Part shown: positions 30,301 to 47,510 of the stretch, in pieces
Layout: every line of letters starts with the position of its first letter
Numbering within the stretch: the stretch's first letter is position 1
NCBI GenBank assembly: GCA_964581815.1
Contig: CAZORE010000010.1
Span: 34,385 to 98,384, forward strand
Length of the DNA: 64,000 bases
From: an uncultured Streptosporangiaceae bacterium
GTDB lineage: Bacteria; Actinomycetota; Actinomycetes; Streptosporangiales; Streptosporangiaceae
Reading direction: 5' to 3'
The notes under the pieces: generated by a model
Told to the model about the DNA's origin: nothing
The model's input: the letters and a program-made list of their open reading frames with translations, nothing else
The model's database searches: none
Position numbers and translations under genes: made by a program

Positions 30301-32118
30301 CTACTGGTAGGCCCGGGCCTGGAGGGTGAACAGTTCGGCGTAGAGCCCGCGGGCGGTCATGAGCTCACGGTGGGTGCCGTATTCGGTGAGCTGCCCGTGG
30401 TCGAGGACGGCGATGAGGCCGGCCATGCGCACGGTGGAGAAGCGGTGGGAGATGAGGACGGTGATGCCGCCGCCTTCCCGTCCGGCTTGCGCGGCGGAGG
30501 ACGCGTAGCGTTCGAACAGGTCGTGCTCGGCGGAGGCGTCGAGGGCAGCGGCGGGCTCGTCGAGGATGAGCAGCAGGGGATCGCGCCGCATCAGGGTGCG
30601 GGCCAGGGCCACCGTCTGCCACTGGCCGCCGGACAATTCCATACCGTCGGCGTAGGAGTGGCCCAGGTACCCGTTCAGTCCGCCGGGGACCGCGCGCAGG
30701 ACCCGGCCCGCGCGGGCCTTTTCCGCGGCCGCGCGGACCGCCTCGGTGTCGTCGGCGCGGGCGATGTCGCCGTGCCCGATACTCATCCCGAGGGTCAGCT
30801 CGATGCGGTGGAAGTCCTGGAACAAGGGGGCCACGCGGGAGCGCCAGCTGGCGGGGGCGAGCCCGGCCAGGTCCTGCCCGTCGATGAGGATCCGTCCGCT
30901 GGTCGGCTGGTAGAGGCCGCATAGCAGCTTGACGAGGGTGGACTTGCCTGCCCCGTTCTCGCCGACCAGGGCCAGGACCGACCCGGCCGGGATATCCATC
31001 GAGACCCCGGACAGCACGGGCCGCTCCGCGCCCGGGTAGGTGAACGAGACGTCCTCGAGCGTGATCCCGCGGGTCAGCCTGCCCGGAACGCCTGCGGGGT
31101 CCGCCGCGTCCGCAAGAGCGGCGCCTGCGGAAGGCGCGAGAGCCGCGGGAACCGCGGCGGCGACCGCCCGCAGGTCGCCGATCCGCTCTACTGTCCGCGC
31201 GGCGACCTGTAGCAGCGACAGAGCGCTGAGCGTGCCGGAGATCTGCACGCTCACCTGCACCGCGAGGGTGATCACGAGCACCAGGTCGCCAGCGGAGGCG
31301 TGCCCGTGCAGCGCGCGGTACAGCTCGCCCACGACGGCACCCGCGTAGCCGAGGGCGAAGAACCCCTGCCCGGCCGCCCGGTACACGGCGGCTTTGAGCT
31401 GGGCCCGCCACATCACGGTGGTCACCTCGTCCCAGGCATCCCGCTGACGCCGCAGGATCTCGTCTTCGGCGCCGAACAGCCGCAGCTCCCTGACCGGCGC
31501 GGTGCTGGTCGCGAGCTCAAGCAGGTGCTTGGCGAGCCGGAGCCGCTCGGCTGTCCGTTTCCTGGCGTCCTCCACGGTGGACTGCGCCGTCCGCTCGAAG
31601 ATCACCGGGACCACGGCGCACAGCGGCAGGACCGTGGACAGGGGGCTGACCATGACAAGGAGGGCGATGGTGATGATCATCTGCAGCAGCAGGCCGGTGA
31701 GCTGCAGCACTCCCTCCAGGGACTGGGACGTGACGAACAGGCCGTCGCGGACCAGGTCCACGTTGTCGGCGACATCGGGCCGGTCAAGGTGATCGATCTG
31801 GGGCGGCCCGTTCACCAGGTCCATGAGCTCACCGCGCAGCCGCATCTGCTGCGCCTCCGTCACCCGGACGAGATCCAGGTGGCAGAAATGGCCGAGCATG
31901 ATCTGGGCGGTGAGCGCGACCGAGGCGAGCACCGCCGCGGCCAGCGCGGGCCCGGCGCGATGGGCCAGCGCGTCGTCGGTGAGGTCGCGCAGCGCCAGGG
32001 CGGCCAGCGGCGCGGCGACGTAGAGGGTGACCGCGAGCACCGTCGCGCGCAGTAGCCGGGCCGCGTCCACCCGCAGCCCCAAGGCGAACAGGAAGCGCGC
32101 CGCCCGGAAAATTCTCAT
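30301..32118 (-). CDS. ABC exporter half (TMD + NBD)
   Basis: GENGAGKST, LSGGQWQ, ILDEPAA, SHRFST; ATG 32118 overlaps the upstream stop. Confidence 0.9.
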   Translation of the reverse strand: MRIFRAARFLFALGLRVDAARLLRATVLAVTLYVAAPLAALALRDLTDDALAHRAGPALAAAVLASVALTAQIMLGHFCHLDLVRVTEAQQMRLRGELMDLVNGPPQIDHLDRPDVADNVDLVRDGLFVTSQSLEGVLQLTGLLLQMIITIALLVMVSPLSTVLPLCAVVPVIFERTAQSTVEDARKRTAERLRLAKHLLELATSTAPVRELRLFGAEDEILRRQRDAWDEVTTVMWRAQLKAAVYRAAGQGFFALGYAGAVVGELYRALHGHASAGDLVLVITLAVQVSVQISGTLSALSLLQVAARTVERIGDLRAVAAAVPAALAPSAGAALADAADPAGVPGRLTRGITLEDVSFTYPGAERPVLSGVSMDIPAGSVLALVGENGAGKSTLVKLLCGLYQPTSGRILIDGQDLAGLAPASWRSRVAPLFQDFHRIELTLGMSIGHGDIARADDTEAVRAAAEKARAGRVLRAVPGGLNGYLGHSYADGMELSGGQWQTVALARTLMRRDPLLLILDEPAAALDASAEHDLFERYASSAAQAGREGGGITVLISHRFSTVRMAGLIAVLDHGQLTEYGTHRELMTARGLYAELFTLQARAYQ

Positions 32119-34052
32119 GCCACCTCCTCGCCGGCGAACCGCCGTGCCTGCAGCCCGAACAGTTCCGCGTACTGCCCGCCCGCCGCGATCAGTCCTTCGT
32201 GGCTCCCCTGCTCGGTGATCAGCCCGCCGTCGAGGACCACGATCCGGTCCGCGCGCCGCACCGTGGAGAACCGGTGGGAGATGACCACCGTCGTCAGCCC
32301 GCGGGTGAGCTCCAGGAACCGGTCGAAGAACGCGACCTCGGCGCGGACGTCCAGCTGCGCGGTCGGCTCGTCCAGGACGAGCACCGAAGCGCCTGCCTGC
32401 ACGGCGAACAGGGCGCGGGCCAGGGCGATCCGCTGCCACTGCCCGCCCGACAGGTCCACCCCCCTGGAGTACCGGCTGGACAGGATGGTCGCCAGCCCGT
32501 CCGGCAGCGCCGCGGTGACCTCGGCGGCCCCCGCCCACTCGATGGCACGGGTCAAGGCCTCCGTGTCCCCCAGGTGCCCGGGTGCGCCGAGCCCGATGTT
32601 GGCGGCCACGTCAAGCTCGTAGCGGACGTAATCCTGGTAGATCACCGCCAGGCGCCGCTGCCAGGACCGGGCCTCGATCTCCTCCAGGGCGACCCCGTCC
32701 ACCGTGATGCGCCCGCCGGTGGGCTCGTACAGCCTGGCCAGCAGCTTGACCAGGGTGGTCTTGCCCGCCCCGTTCAGTCCCACGATCGCGGTCGAGGTGC
32801 CCGCCGGGAACCGCAGGTCAAGGTCTCGTAGCACATTCCGGCCGCTGCCCGGGTAGGCGAAGCTCACCTTCTCGAACGCGATACCGGAGACGGGCACCGG
32901 TCCGGCCGGCCGGCCGCGAGGCCGCAGGGGGCCCGGCGGGCGCGGCGCGACGGCCCGTTCGACCTCCAGCATCGAGTCATGGGCCCGCATACCGTCCAGG
33001 GTCTGGTCGGCCTCGGGGAAGTACACCCCGAACCGCAGCACGATGATGACCCCCTGCAGGGCCAGCGACAGGCCAAGCACGCTCAGCCCGCCACGGCCGG
33101 CGATGTCACGCAGCATGACCAGCACGGCCGCGGTCCCGGCCAGCACCACCAGGCTGTATACCGTGACCGGCACCAGGCGGATCCGGCGGCGGGCGCGCCA
33201 CAGCGGGCGCAGGTAGGAACCGGATTCCCGCCTCCCCCGCTCCCGCCACCACGGCAGCGTCCCCAGCACCCGGATCTCCTTGGCGGCAGCGAGCGAACTG
33301 CCGGTGTCGAGGACGTAGTACGCCCTGCGCCGGGCCGCCGCCGACCGGCTCCTGAGTATCAAGTACCGGGCCTGAATGCCCCGCTCCCCGAACCGGGCGA
33401 CGAGCGCCGCCGCCGTGATCACCAGCGCGGCCACCGGGCCGAGCACCACCCCGGTCATCACCACGCCCCCAGCGAGTTGCGCGTACCGGGCGACCAGCGC
33501 GATCAGCCCCGCAACGGCGGCCCCCGGCGTGGCGGTGTACTCCGTCAGCCCCCGGCGGGAATCACTCAGGTCGTCCAGGACATCCGGCTGCTCAAGCAAG
33601 GCAGCCGGGGCCTCGGTGAGGGTAACCCGCATGAGCCTCCGCGCGCATGCCCCGTCCACCCGCCGGCTGATCAGTTCGGTGAACGCGGCCTGGAATGGCG
33701 AGAGGACCGATTGCAGCAGCAGCGAGGCCACCGCCAGCCCCGCCGCGAGCAGGACCCCGCCCCAGATACCGCTCCCGCCCCCCGCGACGCGCCCGATGGC
33801 AGCGCTAGTGCCGATCACGAAACCCAGGGGCAGCAAGCCGATCACCAGATTGAGCGCGATCGATGCGAGAGCAACCCGGCCCGCCACGGGAAGCAGCGCG
33901 ATGATCGACCACCAGCTCCGCCAGCGCTTCCGCCGCCACCTGGCCCAAACCGCCCAGCGGGCAGCCGCGGCACAGAAGGCGCTCGGAGGTCTCCCGGGAC
34001 GTGAGAGGGAGGGTTCCTCATGCGGTGGATCGAATCGCCGGGACTGGGACAT
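32115..34052 (-). CDS. ABC exporter half (TMD + NBD)
   Basis: GLNGAGKTT, LSGGQWQR, VLDEPTA, SHRFST. Start uncertain (ORF open to 34118). Confidence 0.88.
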   Translation of the reverse strand: MSQSRRFDPPHEEPSLSRPGRPPSAFCAAAARWAVWARWRRKRWRSWWSIIALLPVAGRVALASIALNLVIGLLPLGFVIGTSAAIGRVAGGGSGIWGGVLLAAGLAVASLLLQSVLSPFQAAFTELISRRVDGACARRLMRVTLTEAPAALLEQPDVLDDLSDSRRGLTEYTATPGAAVAGLIALVARYAQLAGGVVMTGVVLGPVAALVITAAALVARFGERGIQARYLILRSRSAAARRRAYYVLDTGSSLAAAKEIRVLGTLPWWRERGRRESGSYLRPLWRARRRIRLVPVTVYSLVVLAGTAAVLVMLRDIAGRGGLSVLGLSLALQGVIIVLRFGVYFPEADQTLDGMRAHDSMLEVERAVAPRPPGPLRPRGRPAGPVPVSGIAFEKVSFAYPGSGRNVLRDLDLRFPAGTSTAIVGLNGAGKTTLVKLLARLYEPTGGRITVDGVALEEIEARSWQRRLAVIYQDYVRYELDVAANIGLGAPGHLGDTEALTRAIEWAGAAEVTAALPDGLATILSSRYSRGVDLSGGQWQRIALARALFAVQAGASVLVLDEPTAQLDVRAEVAFFDRFLELTRGLTTVVISHRFSTVRRADRIVVLDGGLITEQGSHEGLIAAGGQYAELFGLQARRFAGEEVA

Positions 34053-34372
34053 TGCTCCCCTGATCAGGCAGGACGGCCCGGCGCACAAGAAACACGCGAG
34101 TGGCGGCCGGCGGGACACTGGTCCGGCGGTATGTCCTGCACTGACCCCAGCGGGGCAGGCAATAAGGCCGCGGTTACGACAACCGCGATACCGCCGCTAA
34201 GCGGCGGTGACAGCGAAGCAGCCCATGCAACCCATGCCGTCACCATAGCCGACAGTCGCCTAAGCGCACGATGCCCTGGAGACGGGCGATACGGCCGTGT
34301 CAGGAGGGCTAGGACGATTCTTAGCTTCCCGCTAAGATTTGAGGCTCTGACTGGTCCATGAAGGGGTGGGCG

Positions 34373-34828
34373 ATGACCAGTCGCGTGCTAGTTAGCGACG
34401 TAATGACGGCGTTTCCCGCTTACCTGCGGCTCGGGGCGACGATCCGGCGGGCAGCTGAGATGCTCAGCGTTTCCGAGGTCGGCCATCTGATGGTGCTGGA
34501 TCATGACGGCCGGTTTGCCGGCTCGCTGTCCGAGGAGGACGTGGTGCGAGCCATGCTGCCCAGCTTCGGAGACGTGACCGCCGGCGGAGGCACGCTCGCG
34601 GACGCGTTCCGCATTTTCCTTGAGCGGGGCCGCACTCTCGCCGACCGTGTCATCGATCCTCTCGTCGTGCGCGACGCGGCGACGGTCCGGCCGACCGACG
34701 AACTCGCCCGGGCAGCGATCGTGATGATCGACCGCGGGATCCGGAGACTTCCCGTGATCGATGACGGTGCCCTGGTAGGCACGCTGTCCCGGGCCGACCT
34801 GTGCCGTGCGGTGATCTACCATTCCTGA
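34373..34828 (+). CDS. CBS-pair protein
   Basis: VSDVMT...AAEML...GHLMVLD...GSLSEED / AAIVMIDRGIRRLPVIDDGALVGTLSRADL. Confidence 0.88.
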   Translation: MTSRVLVSDVMTAFPAYLRLGATIRRAAEMLSVSEVGHLMVLDHDGRFAGSLSEEDVVRAMLPSFGDVTAGGGTLADAFRIFLERGRTLADRVIDPLVVRDAATVRPTDELARAAIVMIDRGIRRLPVIDDGALVGTLSRADLCRAVIYHS

Positions 34829-34877
34829 AATCCGGCTGCGCCTCCACGATCGCCACACCCGCGAAATCAGCCACCGG

Positions 34878-37800
34878 GTGTGCACGCTGCCGGCGACCCT
34901 CGGCCGCGACAGCGGCACCGCGTCGGTGGTTCTTGACGATACCGATGTCTCCCGGCGGCACGCGCGGATCGAGATGGCCGGCAACGAGCTGGTGGTGGTT
35001 GACCTTGACAGCACCAACGGGACTTATGTCAACGACAAGCTCGTGAAACGCCACGTCCTCGTCCCCGGCGATCGAGTGCGCATGGGACGGTACGAGGTGT
35101 CGTGGTCCTTCATTGACTCGAGCTCGACGAGACTCGTCGACCCGGGCCAGTTGACCGCCGCGCGGCGCGTCGCGACCGGGGGCGTGGCGGCCCGGCGCGT
35201 GGTGGAGGCCGCGGAAGCGCACAACAAGCAGGCCGGGCACGAACTTGACGGCTTCCTGTCGCTGGAGCACGGTTTTCTGCCCGCTGAGCAGCCGCTGCTC
35301 GCCTTCCCGGAATCGCACCGGGCCTGGGACGACATGACCGATCAGCTCCCAGACCTGTTCCGGCGGCTGTCCCTGCGCCGGGCGTTCGATGCGATGCCAG
35401 TGCTGGATGCCGCGCCGACGGCCTTGCCTGACCGGTACCTGCTGCGCGCATCGACTTTGCTCGGGGTATTCGCCCACGCCTATCAGTACATGGCGATCGA
35501 TCCGCCGCCCGTGCTGCCGGATTCGCTGCTGCGACCGTGGCGGACCGTTTCGCGCCGGCTCGGCAAGAAGATCCCGGCCGTCTCTTACATCGACCTGTTC
35601 TTCTACAACTGGCGGCTGCGCGACCCAGCAGGCCCGCGGATGCTAGACAACATGGACCTGCTGGTGCCGACCTGGAACAACGCGGCTGAGCGGGTCTTCT
35701 ACCTGGTGACCACTGAATTCGCGATGGGCCTGACCCCGGTCCTTGGCGCCATGCTGAACGCCCAGGAGGCCGTGGTCGCCGACGATCCGGTGGCCCTGGA
35801 GGGAGCGCTGCTGGCCATCCTCGACCAGTTGCAGTACGTGACCCGCACCATTTACCCGCAGATTGATCCCAACCTGCGGGGCAGGTACGCACTCGACCAG
35901 GTGCTGTGGGCCAAGACGGTCGGCACCGCCGGGGTCCCGATCTTCGATGGCGCGCCCAGCCCGAGCGGCACCGCGCAGCCGCAGATCCACGCACTGGACG
36001 CGTTCCTCGAGCGCCAGGACTTCGCGTCGGTCGTCGGCCAGCAGAGCGTCTACCTCGCCGGGTTCTTTCCGCGTCACTGGCAGGAACTCGTGGCCGCCCT
36101 GCGCGAGGTGTCGGTACGCCAGTACATCGAGCGCACCCGCAGCAGCACCTTGCGCGGCGTCTACAACGCGATGCTCGACGCCTACCTGGGCGACCGCGGC
36201 TGGATGGGACTGCACCGAGTCAAGGCGTACGGCTTCCTTGAGGTGGCGTTCAAGGTCGGCCGGCAGGTGACGACCGGCGCCCGGTTCACGGGACTGTTCA
36301 AGGACCGGACCTGGGACAAGGTCGACGACGAGCTGGCCTTTGTCCGCGAAGAGCGCCGACCGCCGGTGGGTCCGCCCGTCGTGTTCGGCACCGCTCGCCG
36401 GGGCCGCGTGGTGACCGCGGAATCTGGTGCCTGGACCGGTTACCTGGACATCGACGTGAGCGGGCAAGGGGTATACCACCTGCCCGGTGACCGGGTCGGC
36501 GTGCTGGCCGAGCACGACCAGGACCTTGTGCACCGCACGGTCGCCGCGCTGCAGGCGACCGGCGACGAACTCGTACGGCTGACTCCGGAATGGAAGGCGG
36601 CGGTCGCCTGCCGGGATGGGTACGGCGAAACCGACGTCCTGCCGCTGCGGACGTTGCTGTCCTTTGCCCAGCTCCGCCCGGTCACTCGCGCGGTGGCGAA
36701 ACGACTGGTGAAGCTGACGGCCGTCGGCGCGTGGCAGCGAGTGGTGGACGCCCGGATGGAGGATCAGTGGGAGCTGTGGGACGTCCTGAACCTGCTGCAC
36801 GCGGGGGGATATGACGTCACCCGGCTATGGAAGGCCGATCCCGGCGAGGACGACGCCTTCTGCGCGGTGATCCCGCCCGAGCCCTTCCGGCTGTACTCGA
36901 TCGCCTCGGCGGCGCCGCCCAGCCAGCCCGCCACCACGCTCCGGCTGGTCGTCGCCGGCCTGAGCTACTCCTCCGCCCAGACGCCCTGGTCATATCCGCG
37001 CGAACGGCAGGGAACGGCTTCGCATTTCCTGCGCCGCGCGAGCGCCGACGGCCGCAGCCGGCTGTCGCTGCAGATCGTCTCCGCCCCGCGGTTCCGGCTG
37101 CCCGCCGATCCCGCGACGCCCGTCGTGATGTTCGCGGCCGGCTCGGGAGTCGCCCCCTTCCTCGGATTCATCGCCGCGCGCACCGGTTCCGGTGAGAACC
37201 GGCTCTACCTGGGGATCAGGACACCAGAAGAATTCGCGGTGCAGGCAGACCTGGACGCAGCGGCCGCCGCGGGCCGGCTGAACCTCAGCGTCGCCTTCTC
37301 CCGCGCCGATGCCGCGGTCAGTTTCGACGGCCAGCGCCACGTTGTCCAGAGCGGGCAGCGGCGCCGGGTCGACGACGTGATCCGCGCCGAGGCAAGCACC
37401 CTCTGGGACCTGCTGCGCCCCACGGACGAGGGCGGACGCGGTGCCTTCGTCTATGTGTGCGGCACCGCCCGGTTCGCGGTCGCCGTGCGCGAGGCACTGG
37501 CCGCCATCGTCCCTGGCGACGGCGCGGAATTCCTCCGCCAGCTGGTGGCCGACGGACGGCTCGGCGAGGACGTCTTCACCACCTATCTCGGTCACGCCCA
37601 GCAGGGTCGTCGCTTCGAGGTATCGGAACTGGCCACCCACAACGCTCCCGGCGAGCCCTACTGGATGGCGATCGGCGGCGCGGTATTCGACGTCACCGAA
37701 TTCCAGCACCTGCACATCGGCGGGGCGCACATCGTCCGCAACCACGTCGGCCTCGACGCGACCGCCGCGTACCGGAAGGTCCTGCACCACGCGCACTCCG

Positions 37801-38609
37801 AAATCGACGCCCAGCTGGCCATGTATGAGATCGGGCATCTGCGCAGGCTTGACTTTGGCGACCGCTGGGGTGTGGTTCTCACCGAAGACGGCCTGCACGC
37901 CATGGCGCTCGAGGAGCTGTTCCGGACCTGGGTGCGGTTCGTGTACCTGCTGGTCGGCATGGAGAACGCGCTGAACGCTGACTACGCGTTCACGACGACG
38001 GTGAGCACCCTGGGGGAGGACGCCAAGGAACTGACGCCCTTCAAGGCGCAGTACGTCATCGAGTCGCACCGGCGGTTCCTCATCAGCTACCTCGACGGCG
38101 TGCTCAACGACGACCTGCGCACCCTGTGGCAGCTCACCGTCGGATTTTGTGAGCCGGGCCTGGACATCCGGTCCTTCGACACCGACCTCGCCGCCGTCTT
38201 GGCACGCCCGGAAGTCGCACTGGTCCGTCGTTCCGTCGGCTCCGTCAAGGAACAGTTGCTCACCGAGGAGGACTTCAGGCGGGTCGCGGCGATGTGCCGC
38301 AGCTACGCGCGCATCGACGTCCAGCTCCTTCGCGACCTGAAGAACGCCGTGCTCGAGGGAATCCGCGCCTTTGAGACGCACGAGGCCGATGTCGTCGAGC
38401 GGGCCGGAGCCACCGTGCTGAACGCGGCGCGCCAGACGCTCGATGTGGTGTCGGCGTATTACCAGCGCCTGGCCGAGTACACGCGCGGCCATGGCATCGC
38501 GGCCGGCGACGCGGTCGAGGAGGTCATCCCGGCCGACCGGGGCATCCCGGGGCACGGCGGCCCGCTGCCTCTTCCCGACTCGATCACCGTTCAGAAGGAG
38601 ACTCCGTGA
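34878..38609 (+). CDS. Fusion: FHA + indoleamine 2,3-dioxygenase-like heme domain + FAD/NADPH reductase + cytochrome b5 + unknown helical C-terminus
   Basis: FHA: GR, SRRH, DLDSTNGT. IDO-like: LLGVFAHAY, PWRTVSRRLG, YIDLFFYNW, GTAQ, GLHRVKAY. Reductase: PGDRVGV, RLYSIASA, GTASHFL, MFAAGSGVAPFLGF, YVCG. b5: VFDVTEF..LHIGG..DAT..Y..VLHH. Confidence 0.82.
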   Translation: MCTLPATLGRDSGTASVVLDDTDVSRRHARIEMAGNELVVVDLDSTNGTYVNDKLVKRHVLVPGDRVRMGRYEVSWSFIDSSSTRLVDPGQLTAARRVATGGVAARRVVEAAEAHNKQAGHELDGFLSLEHGFLPAEQPLLAFPESHRAWDDMTDQLPDLFRRLSLRRAFDAMPVLDAAPTALPDRYLLRASTLLGVFAHAYQYMAIDPPPVLPDSLLRPWRTVSRRLGKKIPAVSYIDLFFYNWRLRDPAGPRMLDNMDLLVPTWNNAAERVFYLVTTEFAMGLTPVLGAMLNAQEAVVADDPVALEGALLAILDQLQYVTRTIYPQIDPNLRGRYALDQVLWAKTVGTAGVPIFDGAPSPSGTAQPQIHALDAFLERQDFASVVGQQSVYLAGFFPRHWQELVAALREVSVRQYIERTRSSTLRGVYNAMLDAYLGDRGWMGLHRVKAYGFLEVAFKVGRQVTTGARFTGLFKDRTWDKVDDELAFVREERRPPVGPPVVFGTARRGRVVTAESGAWTGYLDIDVSGQGVYHLPGDRVGVLAEHDQDLVHRTVAALQATGDELVRLTPEWKAAVACRDGYGETDVLPLRTLLSFAQLRPVTRAVAKRLVKLTAVGAWQRVVDARMEDQWELWDVLNLLHAGGYDVTRLWKADPGEDDAFCAVIPPEPFRLYSIASAAPPSQPATTLRLVVAGLSYSSAQTPWSYPRERQGTASHFLRRASADGRSRLSLQIVSAPRFRLPADPATPVVMFAAGSGVAPFLGFIAARTGSGENRLYLGIRTPEEFAVQADLDAAAAAGRLNLSVAFSRADAAVSFDGQRHVVQSGQRRRVDDVIRAEASTLWDLLRPTDEGGRGAFVYVCGTARFAVAVREALAAIVPGDGAEFLRQLVADGRLGEDVFTTYLGHAQQGRRFEVSELATHNAPGEPYWMAIGGAVFDVTEFQHLHIGGAHIVRNHVGLDATAAYRKVLHHAHSEIDAQLAMYEIGHLRRLDFGDRWGVVLTEDGLHAMALEELFRTWVRFVYLLVGMENALNADYAFTTTVSTLGEDAKELTPFKAQYVIESHRRFLISYLDGVLNDDLRTLWQLTVGFCEPGLDIRSFDTDLAAVLARPEVALVRRSVGSVKEQLLTEEDFRRVAAMCRSYARIDVQLLRDLKNAVLEGIRAFETHEADVVERAGATVLNAARQTLDVVSAYYQRLAEYTRGHGIAAGDAVEEVIPADRGIPGHGGPLPLPDSITVQKETP

Positions 38610-39394
38610 CCGGACTCGCCACTATCCGGACCTCGCTTGAGCAGTGCTACGACGCGATCGAGTCGCTGGCTGGCCGGATGGACGCTACCCAGTGGGACGC
38701 GAGGTCCCTGTGCCCGGACTGGGACATGCGCGGCGTGATCGACCATCTCGGGATGATGGAACGGGTGATGACCGGCTGGCTGCCGGAGTCCGCCGCCGAC
38801 CCGGCGCCACTGGACCGGATCGGCCCGTACCGCGAGGAAGTGGCCGCGCTGGACGACGCGGAGTTCACGGCCCGGATCAGCGAGATCTTCGCCAGCCGTC
38901 GGGCCGACCTGGCCAGGCTGACCGACGCCGACCTGGCGAGGGAGTCCTGGACGCCGATCGGGCCGCGCAGCTACGGTGGCTTCCTGGAGATCCGGATCTT
39001 CGACTTCTGGGTGCACGAGCGTGACATCAGCACCCCTCTCGGCTGGCCGTCCGACGACACCGGGCCGCGGGCGGAGATCGCCCTCGCCCAGGTGCAGGCC
39101 TCGATCGGCTACATCGTCGGAAAGAAGATCGGCTTGCCGGACGGCGCCAGCATTGTGTTTCACCTCACCGGTCCGGTGGAGCGGGACCTGGCGGTCGTGG
39201 TTGACGGCCGGGCCAGGCCGGTGGACCACGTCGATCACCCTGACGTGGAACTGACCACCGACTCGGTCACCTTCATCCAGCTGGCCGCCGGCCGGATCGA
39301 CCCGCAGCGGCAAATCGACGCGGGCCTCGTGACCTGGACCGGGAATGCCCAGCTGGGCGAGCACGCCGCGCGCAACCTCAGATTTACCGTCTGA
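38606..39394 (+). CDS. Mycothiol-dependent maleylpyruvate-isomerase-family (MDMPI/DinB-like) protein with SCP2-like C-terminus
   Basis: WDARSLCPDWDMRGVIDHL, IFDFWVHERDI; GTGA overlap with the upstream gene. Confidence 0.85.
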   Translation: MTGLATIRTSLEQCYDAIESLAGRMDATQWDARSLCPDWDMRGVIDHLGMMERVMTGWLPESAADPAPLDRIGPYREEVAALDDAEFTARISEIFASRRADLARLTDADLARESWTPIGPRSYGGFLEIRIFDFWVHERDISTPLGWPSDDTGPRAEIALAQVQASIGYIVGKKIGLPDGASIVFHLTGPVERDLAVVVDGRARPVDHVDHPDVELTTDSVTFIQLAAGRIDPQRQIDAGLVTWTGNAQLGEHAARNLRFTV

Positions 39395-42931: not shown

Positions 42932-43259
42932 GCCCCGACAATATCCGCACCCCGTGAACCGGGGATAGATAACAGTGGTGAACATACGGCTCTCCTCGTA
43001 TTTGTGAGGAGGCTGAGAAAAGGATCTTTGCGCTGAAGCTGCCATTGACCGGGTTGATTGTGATCTTCGCATCCGTGAAATCAAGCCGGCGGCCGGTAAT
43101 TGGAAACATGCCTTCAACAATCGCGGCCTCTTCCAATTACTTGTTGATTTCTCCGTCTCACCAGTCTCGTTAGCAACAGGGACGTGCTTGCGTCCCAATC
43201 CCTTTCGCGTGCGTGTCCGTATAGAAGGTTGTCAGAAGTTATGGGTATTCGCAGGACGA

Positions 43260-46200
43260 ATGCGGGGGCTTATGCGTACGGGCGTTGGGGGCGACGTCAA
43301 CGGCAAGGAAGAACATCGGCCAGGGTCCCGTTGTCGGCTAGACGATCGCCTGCTGACCTGCGACGGCTACGACGACTCGATCAGATGGCGGCCGGTTGAG
43401 CGACTTGAAGACCTGTTCGAGGAGCGCTGCGACTGGCTGCGCCGCCAGGGGCAGGCCGGCCATCTCGCGGTGGACGACCCGGGCGGCTCGCTGACCTATC
43501 CAGAGCTGGACGCGCGGGCGAACCAGCTGGCGCGCTTCCTTATCCGCCAAGGCGTCCGGCCTGGTGACCGAATCGGCCTGCTGTCCGACGTGGCCGTAGA
43601 CGGCTACGTCGGCATGCTGGCGGTGCTCAAGGCACACGCCGCCTTCGTTCCGCTGGACGCCAGCTTCCCCGCGGACCGGGTGGCCTACATCGCCGACGAC
43701 GCCCGGGTCCGGCTGATCCTGACCCGCGCGCACCTCGCAACCAGGCTCGGGCCGCTGGCCAGCCAGGTCCAGCTGGTGTGCGTCGACGAGGCCGAGGGCC
43801 TGATCGGCGCCGAACCCGGTGACCCGCTCACGCCGGATGAGGTGCGGGCGCCGCACGACGAGCTTGCCTACATCATCTACACGTCCGGCTCGACCGGCAG
43901 GCCCAAGGGCGTGGCGGTCGGTCACCCGAGCATCTGCAACTTCGTCCGGGTAGCCGCGGAAGCCTACGGGATCACCTCGGGCGACCGGGTGTACCAGGGG
44001 ATGACGATCGCGTTCGACTTCTCCGTCGAGGAGATCTGGGTCCCGTGGATGTGCTGCGCCACGCTCGTCCCCAAGCCGGCCGGCGGCAACCTGCTCGGCC
44101 TTGACCTCGGCGCGTTCCTCAGGGAGCGCCGGGTGACCGCGCTGTGCTGCGTGCCCACGCTGCTCGCCACGCTGGAAGAGGACCTGCCTGAGCTGCGCTT
44201 CCTGCTGGTGTCCGGTGAGTCGTGCCCGCACGACCTGATCGCCCGCTGGCACCGGCCCGGCCGCCGTTTCCTCAATGTCTACGGCCCGACCGAAGCCACC
44301 GTGACCGCGACCTGGACCGTCGTGCACCCAGACCGGCCGGTGACAATCGGGGTCCCGCTGCCGACCTATTCGGTCATGATCCTCGACCCAGAGAAAGACG
44401 TCGCGCTGGCCCCGGGGACCATGGGCGAGATCGGCATCGCGGGCATCGGGCTTGCTCACGGTTACGTCAACCGGCCCGACCTCACCGAGCGCGCGTTCCG
44501 GCCGGACTTCCTCGGCATCCCCGGCAATCCGTCGGGAAGGATCTACCGCACCGGCGACCTTGGCCTGATCAACGACCAGGGCGAGATCGAGCACCACGGC
44601 CGCATCGACACGCAGGTCAAGATCCGCGGGTACCGCATCGAGCTGACCGAGATCGAATCGGTCCTGCTGGGCGTCCCCGGTATCGCGCAGGCGGTGGTCG
44701 GCACCTGCCGGCCCCATCCCGATGTCGTGGAACTGGTCGCCTACTACAGCCCGCAGCAGAACTTGCCCCCGGTCGACCCTGGACAGGTTTACGAGACCCT
44801 GCGTGAGCTGTTGCCCGCGTACATGGTGCCGGCCTACCTGGAGAAGCTGCAGGCCATCCCGGTGATGCCAAGCGGCAAAGCGGACAGAAAACGCCTTCCC
44901 CCGCCAACCGGTCCGCGCCTGCAGGCCACCGGTGGCGTTCTCGTGGCTCCGGGCAGCGATACAGAACGCGCGCTCGCGGCTGTCCTTGCCAACGTGCTTG
45001 AAGTCGACGAGGTGTCCGTAGACAGCCACTTCTTCGACGAGCTCGGCGCCAACTCGATGCTGATGGCCCGGTACAACGCGGCGCTCCGCGAGCACACCGC
45101 CCTGCCTTCTGTGTCGATGAAGGACATCTACCTGCACCCGACCGTGTGCAAGCTGGCGGCATTGCTCGAGCCGGCGATGCCGTCGCCGCCGTCCGGCGCG
45201 GCCCAGCCTCCGGTGGCACAGCCACCGCCCGTCCTGTCGTCCACCCCGTACCAGCCGGCTCCGCCGCTGGCCGGCCAGCCGTCGGGAACCCCGCATTACT
45301 TCCTGTGCGGTGCGCTTCAGCTGCTGACGGCGGCCGCGGGCATCGCGGGCGGCGCGCTGCTGCTTAATGCCGGCTTCGCCTGGACCCTCGGGGCGCGCGG
45401 CCCCCTTGACGTCTATCTGCGGCTCGTGGCGTTCGGCAGCAGCACCTTGCTCGGCCTCGGCGTGCTCCCGATCGGGATCAAGTGGCTGCTCATCGGCCGG
45501 TGGAAGCCAGCGAGCATCCGGGCCTGGAGCCTCGGCTACTTCCGGTTCTGGCTGGTCAAGACCGTGGTCGTGGCCAATCCGATGGCCCACCTGTTCATCG
45601 GGACGCCGCTGTACACGCTGTACCTGCGCGCACTCGGCGCCAGGATCGGCCGCCGGGCCACCATCCTCACGCAGCACATCCCGGTCTGTACCGACCTGCT
45701 GTTCATCGGCGCGGACAGCCTCATCACCAAGGACACGTACATCAGCTGCTACCGCGCCAGGGCGGGGCTGATCGAGACTGGTTACGCTTCCGTCGGCGCG
45801 AGCGCGTTCATCGGCGAGCACTCGGTCCTGGACATCAAAACCGCGGTCGGCGAGCGGGCGCAGCTCGGGCACGCGTCCGCCCTGCTCACCGGCCAGATGG
45901 TCCCGCCGGGGGAGATCTGGCACGGATCCCCCGCCGAACGCGCCCCGGACGGCACCGTCTACCAGGTCGTGCCACCCGCCCGCTGCGGCGCGCTGCGCCG
46001 GGCCTGGTCCTGCGTCCCCCGGTTGCTGCTGCTGCTGGCCGTGGCCGGGCCCCTGGAGGCCGGGGTCGCGAGCCTGCTGGTAACGCACTCCCGCGCGCTG
46101 CTCTCCCTGCTCGGCAGCCCGAGGGTGACGAGCTGGCCGTACTACCGGGAGGCGCTGACGGGCGGCGCGGCCGTGGTCTTCGGCCTGACGCTGGCCGGCC

Positions 46201-47477
46201 TGCTCATCGTCGGCCCGGCCGGGCGGCTGCTCAGCCGCCTCCTGCGGCCGGGGCGCGTCTACCCCCTGTACGGTCTGCGGCACGGCGTGCTGCGCGCCGT
46301 CACCCGGATGAGCAACGTCAAGTTCTTCAATGCGCTGCTTGGCGACAGCTCGGCCATCGCGGGATACCTGAGCTACCTCGGCTACCGGCTCAGGCCCGTG
46401 CACCAGACGGGCTCGAACTTCGGCATGGAGGTCAAGCACGACGTGCCGACGCTCAACACCGTCGGCACCGGGACGCTGGTCTCCGACGGGCTGTCCATGA
46501 TCAACGCGGAGTTCTCCGCCAGCTCGTTCCGCGTCGCGCCCGTCGTCATCGGGAGGAACAACTTCCTTGGCAACGGCATCGCCTACCCGCCAGGCGGCCG
46601 GACCGGCGACAACTGCCTGCTCGGCACCAAGGTCATGATCCCGGTCTCCGGGCCGGTCCGGGAGGGAGTCGGCCTGCTCGGCTCGCCCTGCTTCGAGATC
46701 CCCCGCTCGGTCAGCCGCGACCGGCAGCTCGGCGGGCTCAGCGGGACCCCCGTCCAGCGGACGCTGCTGCGGGCCAAGAACCGGCACAACGCCGCCACGA
46801 TGATGCTGTTCCTGCTCGTGCGCTGGCTGTATCTCAGCGGGGTCCTCCTCATCGCGATGCTGCCGCTGGACGGCGGCTCCACCCTGGCAGGCACGCTTGG
46901 CAGCGCAGGCACGGTGGTGGCCGAACTGGTCTTCACCACTGGTTACTTCGTGCTTGTCGACCGGGCGGTCACCGGGTTCCGCGCGCTGCGGCCGAAGTCC
47001 TGTTCCATCTACCAGCCGGCTTTCTGGCGGCACGAGCGGTTCTGGAAGGTTCCGTCGATCGCCTACCTCCCGATGTTCAACGGCACTCCGTTCAAGGGCG
47101 TCATCTGGCGACTGCTTGGCGTGCGGATCGGCCGCCGGGTCTTCGACGACGGCTGCTCGATCATCGAGCGGAGCCTGGTCAGCGTGGGCAGCTACGCCAC
47201 GCTCGCCGCCGGGAGCATCATCCAGTGCCATTCCCTCGAGGACGGCGCCTTCAAGTCCGACTACACCGTCATCGGGACCGGATGCAGCATCGGGAGCGTC
47301 GCCTTCGTCCATTACGGGGTCACGATGCGCGAAGGCTCCGCGCTCGACGCGGACTCTTTCCTGATGAAGGGCGAGGACGTGCCGCCAGAAGCGTTCTGGG
47401 GCGGCAACCCCGCCCTCGAGCGCGGGCTGCGCGCCGTGCCGCAGCGTGCCCCCCAGGCCATCACCGCTGCCAAATAA
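43260..47477 (+). CDS. Pls-type membrane NRPS-like poly(amino acid) synthetase (A-T-TM/three terminal domains)
   Basis: A-domain YTSGSTGRPKG, FDFSVEE, YGPTE, YRTGD, KADRK; T-domain FFDELGANS; TM segments alternating with LGARIGR / LGVRIGRRV hexapeptide-like domains; no C or TE domain. Start uncertain (43188-43272). Confidence 0.9.
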   Translation: MRGLMRTGVGGDVNGKEEHRPGSRCRLDDRLLTCDGYDDSIRWRPVERLEDLFEERCDWLRRQGQAGHLAVDDPGGSLTYPELDARANQLARFLIRQGVRPGDRIGLLSDVAVDGYVGMLAVLKAHAAFVPLDASFPADRVAYIADDARVRLILTRAHLATRLGPLASQVQLVCVDEAEGLIGAEPGDPLTPDEVRAPHDELAYIIYTSGSTGRPKGVAVGHPSICNFVRVAAEAYGITSGDRVYQGMTIAFDFSVEEIWVPWMCCATLVPKPAGGNLLGLDLGAFLRERRVTALCCVPTLLATLEEDLPELRFLLVSGESCPHDLIARWHRPGRRFLNVYGPTEATVTATWTVVHPDRPVTIGVPLPTYSVMILDPEKDVALAPGTMGEIGIAGIGLAHGYVNRPDLTERAFRPDFLGIPGNPSGRIYRTGDLGLINDQGEIEHHGRIDTQVKIRGYRIELTEIESVLLGVPGIAQAVVGTCRPHPDVVELVAYYSPQQNLPPVDPGQVYETLRELLPAYMVPAYLEKLQAIPVMPSGKADRKRLPPPTGPRLQATGGVLVAPGSDTERALAAVLANVLEVDEVSVDSHFFDELGANSMLMARYNAALREHTALPSVSMKDIYLHPTVCKLAALLEPAMPSPPSGAAQPPVAQPPPVLSSTPYQPAPPLAGQPSGTPHYFLCGALQLLTAAAGIAGGALLLNAGFAWTLGARGPLDVYLRLVAFGSSTLLGLGVLPIGIKWLLIGRWKPASIRAWSLGYFRFWLVKTVVVANPMAHLFIGTPLYTLYLRALGARIGRRATILTQHIPVCTDLLFIGADSLITKDTYISCYRARAGLIETGYASVGASAFIGEHSVLDIKTAVGERAQLGHASALLTGQMVPPGEIWHGSPAERAPDGTVYQVVPPARCGALRRAWSCVPRLLLLLAVAGPLEAGVASLLVTHSRALLSLLGSPRVTSWPYYREALTGGAAVVFGLTLAGLLIVGPAGRLLSRLLRPGRVYPLYGLRHGVLRAVTRMSNVKFFNALLGDSSAIAGYLSYLGYRLRPVHQTGSNFGMEVKHDVPTLNTVGTGTLVSDGLSMINAEFSASSFRVAPVVIGRNNFLGNGIAYPPGGRTGDNCLLGTKVMIPVSGPVREGVGLLGSPCFEIPRSVSRDRQLGGLSGTPVQRTLLRAKNRHNAATMMLFLLVRWLYLSGVLLIAMLPLDGGSTLAGTLGSAGTVVAELVFTTGYFVLVDRAVTGFRALRPKSCSIYQPAFWRHERFWKVPSIAYLPMFNGTPFKGVIWRLLGVRIGRRVFDDGCSIIERSLVSVGSYATLAAGSIIQCHSLEDGAFKSDYTVIGTGCSIGSVAFVHYGVTMREGSALDADSFLMKGEDVPPEAFWGGNPALERGLRAVPQRAPQAITAAK

Positions 47478-47510
47478 GGCGCCGCCACCCACGAACAGGA
47501 GCATCACCCG

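What the first reader, a model, noticed from the sequence alone, without database searches (positions are those of the whole stretch)
34373..39394. Operon with a five-domain FHA / IDO-like / reductase / cytochrome b5 enzyme, a CBS protein and an MDMPI protein
Seen: one 1243-aa ORF joins an FHA domain, an IDO-like domain (alignable by eye to IDO1 including the proximal His in GLHRVKAY), an FAD/NADPH reductase module, a cytochrome b5 domain with both His ligands and an unrecognised helical tail of about 250 aa. It is coupled to a CBS gene upstream and an MDMPI gene downstream. Established: IDO-fold enzymes need ferrous heme, and cytochrome b5 plus reductase can supply electrons; FHA binds phosphothreonine; CBS pairs bind adenosyl ligands. 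Inference: a self-sufficient, signal-regulated heme oxygenase acting on an indole or aromatic substrate, with a mycothiol-dependent downstream step. I know of no characterised enzyme with this architecture.
Basis: partly seen in the sequence, partly recalled or inferred. Interest (0 to 1): 0.75.

Follow-up and report, generated by a model that had tools for sequence, protein, structure and literature searches.

The report
IDO-like heme enzyme fused to reductase
This is a real and widely conserved but uncharacterised bacterial enzyme that joins an IDO-like heme domain to its own NADPH reductase and cytochrome b5; it is always paired with a small CBS regulatory protein, but its link to the mycothiol-type gene downstream is a local accident.

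Summary
One long ORF carries FHA, IDO-like (Pfam E 1.7e-27), CPR/CysJ-type FAD/NADPH reductase without an FMN domain, cytochrome b5 with both His ligands, and a roughly 215-residue helical tail. The tail models confidently (pLDDT 91) and has no Pfam or PDB match.

Comparative genomics changes the picture in four ways.

- The conserved unit is two genes: the CBS-pair gene plus the fusion. CBS lies directly upstream in 76 of the 77 genome loci that hold DNA upstream of the fusion gene, across Actinomycetota and Chloroflexota.
- The MDMPI gene is not part of it. It is absent or displaced in every relative, so the proposed mycothiol step is unsupported.
- The core IDO–reductase–b5–tail is a much wider family (328 clusters at 50% identity). 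Other members carry no accessory domain, or GGACT, imine-reductase-like or Zn-ribbon domains.
- The gene most likely starts at an invariant ATT (34821) overlapping the CBS stop. That adds 19 residues which complete the FHA domain; database models start too late.

Most likely mechanism, inferred: NADPH→FAD→b5 heme→IDO-like heme. This would be an O2-activating enzyme acting on an unknown amine-bearing aromatic, gated by the CBS subunit and phosphothreonine signalling. Eight literature searches found no paper on this architecture.

The parts
34373..34828 (+). CBS-pair gene (151 aa from ATG 34373; the longest ORF starts at 34358). It is the obligatory partner of the fusion enzyme.
   Evidence: Pfam CBS, two repeats, E 4.7e-22. 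It lies immediately upstream of the fusion gene in 76 of the 77 genome loci with upstream DNA, at 43-94% identity. It is also upstream of the distant FHA-less members P0213 and P0327. Start choice: relatives begin at (M/V)LVSDVMT behind a GGGAGG site, and here ATG 34373 follows AAGGGGTGGG. Both repeats carry G-x-x-S-x-x-D (GSLSEED, GTLSRAD), the ribose-binding motif of adenosyl-ligand-binding CBS domains (own knowledge).
34810..34823 (+). GGTGATC (34810-34816, complementary to the 16S rRNA 3' end GAUCACC) followed by the probable ATT start codon (34821-34823). The ATT overlaps the end of the CBS gene, so the two genes share 8 nt (ATTCCTGA).
   Evidence: ATT is present at this position in 66 of 66 sequences. 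Positions -13 to -1 (GCGGTGATCTACC) are invariant apart from one change at -5 in one locus. There is no in-frame stop, and 63 of 66 have no ATG/GTG/TTG in the next 19 codons. Actinomycetospora L069 has ATG at the same overlapping position (ATGCCTGA, N-terminus MPEVHLVV), and Pseudonocardia L068 starts with the homologous MPDVRILV. The annotated GTG is GTA, CTG, CTC or GTC in five loci.
34821..38609 (+). Fusion gene: 1262 aa if started at ATT, 1243 aa from the GTG at 34878.
   Evidence: Full-length homologues at 50-100% identity occur in Actinomycetota and Chloroflexota.
34821..35102 (+). FHA domain, including the 19 upstream codons that encode strands β1-β2.
   Evidence: Pfam FHA E 8e-18. PDB hits to GarA/Rv1827 FHA domains, E 1e-10. 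The phosphothreonine-binding residues are present in the sequence (LGR, SRRH, TNGT). The upstream peptide PEIRLRLHDRHTREISHR aligns with the N-termini of longer homologues.
35190..36377 (+). IDO-like heme domain (residues about 105-500). The candidate proximal His is H446 (36213-36215). D374 (35997-35999) aligns with Asp274 of human IDO1.
   Evidence: Pfam PF01231 E 1.7e-27. Family profile against PDB: IDO2 E 2e-28, IDO1 E 1e-22. Global hhalign probability 99.75%, pairing H446 with H346 and D374 with D274. All top-50 Foldseek hits of the low-confidence model are IDO1/IDO2. H446, D374, F274 and G364 are at least 95% conserved over 52 sequences.
36399..37586 (+). CPR/CysJ/BM3-type FAD/NADPH reductase module (residues 508-903) with no flavodoxin (FMN) domain.
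   Evidence: NCBIfam CysJ-type models E 5e-30. PDB: BM3 FAD domain E 1e-19, plus CysJ and CPR. Motifs read from the sequence: RLYS 671-674, GSGVAPF 755-761, AFSR 806-809 (NADPH 2'-phosphate site), CG 861-862, DVF 898-900. Only about 10 residues separate the IDO domain from the FAD domain, too few for an FMN domain.
37614..37847 (+). Cytochrome b5 domain. Heme ligands H946 (HIGG, 37713-37715) and H970 (37785-37787).
   Evidence: Pfam Cyt-b5 E 9e-14. H946, G948, G949, D960 and H970 are at least 95% conserved in the broad family.
37842..38489 (+). Family-specific helical tail: a β-hairpin followed by long helices.
   Evidence: AlphaFold2 pLDDT 91.2, pTM 0.85. No Pfam hit. No PDB sequence hit. Best Foldseek PDB E 0.057, TM at most 0.29. 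In the members scanned or whose genes were looked up, it sits C-terminal to IDO–reductase–b5; one member carries a further domain after it.
38526..38561 (+). Conserved C-terminal peptide IPADRGIPGHGG, after a low-confidence linker.
   Evidence: P, D and PGH are invariant in alignment A4. pLDDT is below 65 there. It is present in the FHA clade and a few FHA-less members, and absent from most of the wider family.
38606..39394 (+). MDMPI/DinB-family gene. It is adjacent (4-nt overlap) in this window only and is not part of the conserved module.
   Evidence: Pfam MDMPI_N E 7e-19; TIGR03083 74.6 bits against a cut-off of 50. Absent downstream in all relatives except L001, where it lies 1.8 kb away. 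The closest relatives L001 and L038 have a convergent gene directly after the fusion gene.

Best explanation
This is a two-gene module encoding a self-sufficient, His-ligated heme oxygenase and its regulatory subunit.

Shown:
- The large protein carries an IDO-like heme domain, a CPR/CysJ-type FAD/NADPH module without an FMN domain, a cytochrome b5 domain and a family-specific helical tail.
- A CBS-pair protein is encoded directly upstream. Its stop overlaps the enzyme's probable ATT start.
- This clade adds an N-terminal FHA domain.

Inferred:
- NADPH reduces FAD. FAD passes single electrons to the b5 heme, which here takes the place of FMN. The b5 heme reduces the IDO-like heme, which binds O2 and oxidises a small substrate.
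- A complete reductase is fused rather than recruited, so the chemistry probably consumes electrons every turnover. That would be monooxygenase-type chemistry, like the HPIC-forming side reaction of human IDO, or like MarE or P450 BM3. Occasional re-reduction seems less likely.
- The substrate is probably an amine-bearing aromatic or indole-like compound, not L-Trp bound in the canonical way.
- The CBS subunit (adenosyl-ligand sensing) and the FHA domain (phosphothreonine from Ser/Thr kinases) gate this NADPH- and O2-consuming activity.
- The helical tail is probably an oligomerisation or positioning stalk.
For: - Domain identities.
- Cofactor residues conserved over 33-83% identity: proximal-His candidate H446 and D374; b5 His pair H946/H970; RxYS, GxGxxP, CG and the stacking DVF.
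- No room for an FMN domain between the IDO and FAD modules.
- CBS adjacency in 76 of the 77 loci with upstream DNA, and in distant FHA-less members, with the CBS stop overlapping the enzyme's start.
- Only these two genes are conserved across 78 loci.
- Other family members fuse small-molecule enzyme domains: GGACT/AIG2 at the N-terminus, and 6PGDH-type NAD-binding plus RedAm-like at the C-terminus. This points to metabolism of an amine or imine compound.
- The IDO fold can perform monooxygenation (PMC12921851).
- Own knowledge: cytochrome b5 with a reductase is the proposed physiological reductant of human IDO1 (Maghzal 2008; Vottero 2006).
Against: - No biochemical data exist. The substrate, the product and even heme binding are unproven.
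- Local alignments stop three residues before H446, and the C-terminal segment alone finds no IDO by sequence.
- The IDO-domain model is poor (pLDDT 59).
- There is no conserved pathway neighbour to suggest a substrate.
- The IDO catalytic cycle itself needs no net electrons, so a dioxygenase with a built-in rescue reductase remains possible.
- Some distant members sit next to signalling genes (PAS histidine kinase, GGDEF-HDOD) and lack a CBS neighbour.
Confidence: 0.5

Rival explanations
1. It is a true tryptophan or indoleamine 2,3-dioxygenase. The fused reductase and b5 only keep the readily autoxidised heme ferrous. In effect it is a bacterial, single-chain version of the IDO1–b5–reductase system.
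For: The closest solved relatives are IDO2 and IDO1. The distal-pocket positions of Tyr126, Phe163, Phe164 and Ser167 are kept or conservatively replaced as Y237, F274, Y275 and T278, and a TTGA loop may match the GTGG JK-loop. Own knowledge: b5 is the proposed reductant of IDO1.
Against: Arg231 of IDO1, which binds the Trp carboxylate, is not matched by Arg in either alignment, and Phe226/Phe227 do not align to conserved aromatic residues. No kynurenine-pathway gene is conserved nearby. Fusing a whole NADPH reductase 1:1 is unusual for mere rescue.
Confidence: 0.2
2. It is a flavohemoglobin-like detoxifier (for example an NO dioxygenase) or a heme-based gas/redox sensor. The reductase resets the heme, and the FHA and CBS partners transmit the signal.
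For: It shares the logic of Hmp: a His-ligated O2-binding heme plus an NAD(P)H reductase. The module stands alone with no pathway genes. It carries regulatory domains. A distant member lies between a PAS histidine kinase and a GGDEF-HDOD gene.
Against: Fusions of other family members to GGACT and imine-reductase-like enzyme domains point to small-molecule metabolism. A conserved IDO-type pocket is unnecessary for NO dioxygenation. No output domain is present in the core family.
Confidence: 0.12
3. One reading: the oxygenase product is processed by the downstream mycothiol-dependent MDMPI-family enzyme.
For: A 4-nt overlap between the fusion gene's stop and the MDMPI start in this window. The MDMPI family assignment is sound.
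Against: MDMPI is not adjacent in any of the related loci. The closest relatives have a convergent gene there instead, and Chloroflexota carry the module too. Own knowledge: Chloroflexota do not make mycothiol, and the family is highly expanded in actinobacteria, so chance adjacency is likely.
Confidence: 0.04
4. A sub-question about the start. Either the GTG at 34878 is the true start and the conserved upstream 57 nt is a regulatory leader, or a +1 frameshift fuses CBS to the enzyme.
For: GTG is present in 59 of 66 sequences. Pfam profile coverage does not extend into the added residues. The two frames overlap at the CBS stop, so a shift is geometrically possible.
Against: The upstream peptide is homologous to the N-termini of homologues that start with ATG. 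The frame is open in 66 of 66 sequences. The 'GTG' is not a start codon in several loci. CAT is never CAC despite about 69% GC. The Ser codon before the stop varies (TCC, TCT, TCG, TCA), so there is no conserved slippery site.
Confidence: 0.12

Closest known systems
Human IDO1/IDO2 with cytochrome b5 and a b5 or P450 reductase as reducing system
   Same: Homologous heme domain (E 2e-28 to IDO2). The same three kinds of component are involved: an IDO-type heme, cytochrome b5 and a flavin reductase.
   Different: Here all three are in one polypeptide, and identity to IDO1/IDO2 is only about 20%. No Arg aligns with Arg231 of IDO1. There are an extra helical tail, an FHA domain and a dedicated CBS subunit. 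The activity is unknown.
P450 BM3 (CYP102A1) and NOS: self-sufficient heme oxygenases fused to a CPR-like reductase
   Same: An N-terminal heme domain is followed by a homologous FAD/NADPH module (BM3 FAD domain E 1e-19). Activity is regulated (NOS by calmodulin).
   Different: The heme domain is IDO-like and probably His-ligated, not a thiolate P450 or NOS heme. The FMN domain is absent, and a cytochrome b5 domain follows the FAD/NADPH module instead.
FAD–b5 electron chains: eukaryotic nitrate reductase, Ncb5or, and the CBBR b5–b5 reductase fusion (PMC12462446)
   Same: NAD(P)H→FAD→b5 heme→catalytic centre within one protein or complex.
   Different: Those use the small b5-reductase type of FNR module, whereas this one uses the CPR/CysJ type with a connecting domain. 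The terminal centre here is an IDO-like heme.
Flavohemoglobin (Hmp)
   Same: A His-ligated O2-binding heme fused to an NAD(P)H/FAD reductase, with electrons consumed per turnover.
   Different: Hmp has a globin fold, no b5 intermediary and no CBS or FHA regulation.
Other heme-dependent aromatic oxygenases: PrnB, MarE, and the tyrosine hydroxylases SfmD/LmbB2
   Same: IDO/TDO-superfamily hemes that do not perform dioxygenation and need a reductant or peroxide (PMC11904535, PMC12312684, PMC11791213; listed).
   Different: None of them was recovered by the PDB sequence searches at E of 0.01 or better. They are stand-alone proteins inside biosynthetic clusters.
OdhI/GarA-type FHA regulators and CBS-pair regulatory subunits (IMPDH, AMPKγ, CBS enzyme)
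   Same: The FHA domain is most similar to GarA/OdhI/FhaB. The CBS pair carries adenosyl-binding motifs.
   Different: Here FHA is fused to the enzyme it presumably regulates, and the CBS pair is a separate protein whose gene overlaps the enzyme's start.

Membership tests
Indoleamine 2,3-dioxygenase family (Pfam PF01231) | Sequence match above the curated threshold | tested here: met
   96.7 bits against a cut-off of 26, E 1.7e-27. Profile against IDO2 E 2e-28. hhalign probability 99.75%.
Indoleamine 2,3-dioxygenase family (Pfam PF01231) | IDO fold (small plus large helical domains) | tested here: met
   All top-50 Foldseek PDB hits are IDO1/IDO2 (probability 1.00, TM about 0.5, 340-410 aligned columns). 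The model itself is weak (pLDDT 59), so this rests mainly on sequence homology.
Indoleamine 2,3-dioxygenase family (Pfam PF01231) | Proximal histidine (His346 of IDO1) and Asp274 | tested here: inconclusive
   D374 aligns with Asp274 in both alignments. H446 is at least 95% conserved and pairs with His346 only in a forced global alignment. Local alignments end three residues before it, and the segment alone finds no IDO.
Indoleamine 2,3-dioxygenase family (Pfam PF01231) | L-Trp binding residues (Arg231, Phe226/227, Ser167, Phe163, Thr379) | tested here: not met
   F163→F274 and S167→T278 are kept or conservatively replaced. Arg231 aligns with Ala338 or Gln341. Phe226/Phe227 do not align to conserved aromatic residues. 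Alignment in this region is uncertain.
Indoleamine 2,3-dioxygenase family (Pfam PF01231) | Heme-dependent conversion of Trp to N-formylkynurenine | not testable with these tools
   Needs enzyme assays.
Diflavin reductases (CPR/CysJ/BM3 reductase) | FAD/NADPH (FNR-like plus connecting) module | tested here: met
   CysJ-type models E 5e-30 over residues 508-899. BM3 FAD domain E 1e-19. The RLYS, GSGVAPF, AFSR, CG and DVF motifs are present.
Diflavin reductases (CPR/CysJ/BM3 reductase) | Flavodoxin-like FMN domain | tested here: not met
   No flavodoxin hit in Pfam or NCBIfam. Matches to CysJ begin at model position 185-254, after the FMN domain. So this is not a diflavin reductase.
Cytochrome b5 (PF00173) | Domain match plus the two axial His residues (HPGG-type motif and the second His) | tested here: met
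   51.8 bits against a cut-off of 23.7. H946 in HIGG and H970 are at least 95% conserved.
FHA domain (PF00498) | Domain match and phosphothreonine-binding Arg/Ser/His/Asn | tested here: met
   65 bits against a cut-off of 20.7. LGR, SRRH and TNGT are present. The fold is complete only if translation starts at ATT 34821. Phosphopeptide binding was not tested.
CBS-pair (Bateman) proteins | Two tandem CBS motifs | tested here: met
   Two stretches, 78.5 bits against a cut-off of 24. The ligand is not testable here.
Mycothiol-dependent maleylpyruvate isomerase family (TIGR03083 / PF11716), as a functional partner | Family membership of the downstream gene | tested here: met
   74.6 bits against a cut-off of 50.
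Mycothiol-dependent maleylpyruvate isomerase family (TIGR03083 / PF11716), as a functional partner | Conserved genomic linkage to the fusion enzyme | tested here: not met
   No adjacent copy in any related locus. A convergent gene sits there in L001 and L038.

The most novel reading that the evidence does not exclude
This is a previously undescribed class of self-sufficient heme oxygenases. In it, a cytochrome b5 domain replaces FMN in a CPR-type reductase to drive an IDO-fold heme through NADPH-dependent monooxygenation. A likely example is 2,3-epoxidation or hydroxylation of an indole or arylamine metabolite. The whole machine would be switched by a dedicated CBS-pair subunit and, in this clade, by phosphothreonine. 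Initiation at a conserved ATT overlapping the CBS stop would set enzyme-to-regulator stoichiometry.
Probability: 0.3. Interest if true: 0.85.

Novelty: new variant of a known kind. Interest (0 to 1): 0.7.

Why it matters
- **Open question on IDO.** How IDO-type hemes are kept or made ferrous in cells is a long-standing question. A natural, widely conserved fusion of an IDO-like domain to cytochrome b5 and an NADPH reductase is independent evolutionary evidence for the b5 route. It also offers a single-chain system in which that electron transfer can be measured directly.
- **A new redox solution.** It adds a new architecture to the small set of self-sufficient heme oxygenases (BM3, NOS, Hmp). 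It uses a CPR-type FAD domain feeding a b5 heme instead of FMN.
- **New parts to study.** It includes a confidently folded domain with no known structural relative and a dedicated CBS regulator.
- **Scope.** The family is broad (328 clusters at 50% identity) and is named only 'FHA domain-containing protein' or 'sulfite reductase flavoprotein'.
- **Annotation error.** The ATT start means that the database models seen here for this actinobacterial clade, all of which begin MC(A/T)LP, are truncated.

Tried and rejected
- **Tail domain.** Pfam at E 10, a PDB profile search, Foldseek against PDB and a word-indexed homologue search found nothing outside this family.
- **IDO-domain model.** The structure prediction used only a 9-sequence alignment and gave a poor model (pLDDT 59).
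- **Proximal-His segment.** Searched alone against PDB, it gave only spurious ankyrin hits.
- **Extended N-terminus.** Pfam on the longer N-terminus did not extend the profile coverage. This is neutral for the ATT start.
- **Regulatory RNA and signals.** An Rfam scan of the upstream region found only a sub-threshold CRISPR-repeat-like palindrome. The promoter and terminator scan found nothing above chance. No upstream motif other than the ribosome-binding site is shared across genera.
- **Further neighbours.** The ORF comparison across 78 loci found none beyond the CBS gene.
- **Literature.** Eight full-text searches found no paper on this architecture. The library lacks most subscription journals, so this is not proof of absence.
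- **+1 frameshift fusing CBS to the enzyme.** Considered and judged unlikely, because there is no conserved slippery site.
- **Thr-x-x-(V/L) motif after the FHA domain as an autoinhibitory phospho-site.** Considered and not claimed; it may simply be the last FHA strand.


Full report
**What is in the window.** The region lies in a roughly 69% GC actinobacterial sequence. Three same-strand ORFs are present. They are a CBS gene, a 1243-aa ORF (GTG 34878 to 38609) and a 262-aa gene (38606-39394) whose start overlaps the big ORF's stop by 4 nt. Upstream is a divergent pair of ABC exporter genes on the minus strand (30301-34118). Downstream are convergent S8 peptidase and penicillin-binding-protein genes. 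So the unit is at most three genes.

**Domain check.** Residues below are numbered from the GTG at 34878.
- Pfam finds FHA (7-70, E 8e-18), IDO PF01231 (128-434, E 1.7e-27), NAD_binding_1 with a weak FAD_binding_1 hit, and Cyt-b5 (916-988, E 9e-14).
- NCBIfam and PDB searches show that residues 508-899 are a CysJ/BM3/CPR-type FAD/NADPH module (E 5e-30 and 1e-19).
- The cofactor motifs RLYS, GSGVAPF, AFSR, CG and DVF are all present.
- Matches to CysJ begin after its flavodoxin domain, and only about ten residues separate the IDO and FAD modules. There is therefore no FMN domain.
- The CBS protein has two CBS repeats. The downstream protein is a sound MDMPI/DinB-family member.

**The IDO-like domain.**
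- A family profile hits IDO2 (E 2e-28) and IDO1 (E 1e-22) in the PDB.
- These alignments pair Tyr126, Phe163, Phe164, Ser167 and Asp274 of human IDO1 with Y237, F274, Y275, T278 and D374.
- Arg231, which holds the Trp carboxylate, aligns with Ala338 or Gln341. Phe226/Phe227 have no conserved aromatic counterpart.
- Local alignments stop three residues before the His in GLHRVKAY. That segment alone finds no IDO.
- A global profile alignment against human IDO1 does pair H446 with His346 (probability 99.75% for the domain).
- H446 is at least 95% conserved across 52 sequences of 33-83% identity, as are D374, F274 and G364.
- My structure model of this domain was poor (pLDDT 59, made from only nine sequences). 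Even so, all top-50 Foldseek PDB hits were IDO1/IDO2.
- I conclude it is a divergent IDO-fold heme domain with a probable proximal His. Its substrate site differs from that of Trp-dioxygenating IDOs.

**The tail.** Residues 989-1204 model with high confidence (pLDDT 91, pTM 0.85) as a β-hairpin followed by long helices. There is no Pfam hit, no PDB sequence hit and no structural match (best Foldseek E 0.057, TM at most 0.29). After a low-confidence linker comes a conserved peptide, IPxDRGxPGHGG. It is restricted to the FHA clade and a few other members.

**How widespread it is.**
- The full five-domain protein occurs at 50-100% identity in many Micromonosporaceae and Streptosporangiales, in Pseudonocardia and Cryptosporangium, and in Ktedonobacteria and other Chloroflexota.
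- The closest named relative is Trebonia kvetii at 92% identity.
- Sources name these proteins only 'FHA domain-containing protein' or 'sulfite reductase flavoprotein'.
- A tail profile searched against 1.84 billion cluster representatives finds 328 clusters.
- Of the eight I scanned, seven carry IDO, a reductase domain and b5 upstream of the tail; the eighth is a fragment of a longer protein. Their ends vary: one carries FHA, others have no accessory domain, an N-terminal GGACT/AIG2 domain, a C-terminal 6PGDH-type NAD-binding plus RedAm-like domain, or a Zn-ribbon.
- FHA is therefore a clade-specific add-on to a roughly 1100-residue core.

**Neighbourhood.**
- In 78 genome loci, tblastn finds the CBS gene immediately upstream in 76 of the 77 that hold upstream DNA, at 43-94% identity. 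It is often better conserved than the enzyme.
- It is also directly upstream of two distant FHA-less members, but not of two others.
- A comparison of ORFs from seven taxonomically distant loci against all 78 shows no other conserved neighbour.
- The MDMPI gene is absent downstream in every relative except L001, where it lies 1.8 kb away. The two closest relatives have a convergent gene straight after the enzyme gene.
- The mycothiol link is therefore a local accident.

**A corrected start codon.**
- The frame of the big gene is open for 21 codons upstream of the GTG.
- The 19 codons from ATT 34821 encode (M)PEIRLRLHDRHTREISHR. This aligns with the first two FHA strands of homologues that have longer, ATG-started N-termini.
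- Actinomycetospora L069 has ATG at the same overlapping position (ATGCCTGA, N-terminus MPEVHLVV), and Pseudonocardia L068 starts with the homologous MPDVRILV.
- In 66 of 66 sequences the codon is ATT. The 13 nt before it (GCGGTGATCTACC) are invariant apart from one base in one locus. No in-frame stop occurs, and 63 of 66 have no canonical start in the 19 codons.
- The annotated 'GTG' is GTA, CTG, CTC or GTC in five loci.
- GGTGATC is complementary to the 16S rRNA 3' end (own knowledge).
- The ATT overlaps the end of the CBS gene, so the two genes share 8 nt (ATTCCTGA). This implies translational coupling.
- A +1 frameshift that would fuse the two proteins is unlikely, because the codon before the stop varies and there is no slippery site.

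**Mechanism.**
- Shown: the cofactor-binding residues of all four redox modules are conserved, and the CBS protein is a fixed partner.
- Inferred: NADPH→FAD→b5 heme→IDO-like heme, with b5 taking the one-electron shuttle role that FMN has in BM3, NOS and CPR.
- Because IDO dioxygenation needs no net electrons, a 1:1 fused reductase suggests chemistry that consumes electrons each turnover.
- The IDO fold can do this. Human IDO makes the monooxygenation product HPIC (PMC12921851). The relatives MarE and PrnB are not dioxygenases (papers listed).
- The GGACT and imine-reductase-like fusions elsewhere in the family point to an amine- or imine-containing small molecule.
- The CBS pair has G-x-x-S-x-x-D motifs in both repeats. 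Together with the GarA-like FHA domain, it probably gates a potentially wasteful NADPH/O2-consuming activity.
- Rivals are a genuine dioxygenase with a built-in rescue reductase, and an Hmp-like NO dioxygenase or sensor. I cannot exclude either.

**Novelty.** Eight literature searches found no description of this architecture. The library lacks most subscription journals. Every domain type except the tail is known, and the logic resembles BM3, NOS, Hmp and nitrate reductase. I therefore rate it a new variant of a known kind, with high interest for heme enzymology.

Noticed in passing
window 34810-34878: The fusion gene most likely starts at an invariant ATT (34821) overlapping the CBS stop, behind an invariant GGTGATC. 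The database protein models seen for this clade begin MC(A/T)LP at the GTG and so lack 19 residues (FHA strands β1-β2).
   Followed up: yes
window 34358-34400: The CBS ORF's first ATG (34358) is probably not the start. ATG 34373 follows an AAGGGGTGGG ribosome-binding site, and relatives begin at (M/V)LVSDVMT. The window has a 9-nt insertion here relative to Trebonia kvetii (L038).
   Followed up: partly
window 38526-38561: A conserved C-terminal peptide, IPxDRGxPGHGG, follows a disordered linker. Its invariant His could be a docking element or a heme-ligating element. It occurs in the FHA clade and a few FHA-less members only.
   Followed up: partly
P0229, P0296, P0327, P0191 (metagenomic relatives; loci L080, L082): The same IDO–reductase–b5–tail core is fused elsewhere to GGACT/AIG2 (N-terminal), to a 6PGDH-type NAD-binding plus RedAm-like imine-reductase domain (C-terminal), or to a Zn-ribbon. 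These are possible clues to the substrate class.
   Followed up: partly
L079 7945-15834: A distant family member (P0320) has no CBS neighbour. It sits between a PAS histidine kinase/response-regulator hybrid and a GGDEF-HDOD gene. Both L079 and L080 also carry FG-GAP/ASPIC-type genes nearby.
   Followed up: no
window 30301-34118 (minus strand): Two ABC exporter genes (transmembrane domain plus ATPase) lie divergent from the CBS gene. As listed, the longest ORFs overlap by about 420 nt, so the downstream gene probably starts internally. They are not conserved next to the module in other genomes.
   Followed up: partly
window 34182-34213 and 34320-34336: Two palindromes lie in the divergent intergenic region. 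One is a GC-rich hairpin that gives a sub-threshold CRISPR-DR20 Rfam hit (29 bits against 42). The other is CTTAGC-N5-GCTAAG, 37 nt upstream of ATG 34373. Neither is conserved in Trebonia kvetii.
   Followed up: no
window 35118-35132 (residues 81-85 from the GTG): A (S/A)-T-x-(L/V)-(V/I/F) motif about 10 residues after the Pfam FHA match is conserved in most FHA-bearing homologues. It may be the last FHA strand or a pThr-x-x-hydrophobic self-binding site of the kind seen in GarA/OdhI.
   Followed up: no
window 43188-47726: Two very long overlapping ORFs lie on opposite strands (1429 aa on + and 1462 aa on -). Which one is the real gene was not resolved.
   Followed up: no
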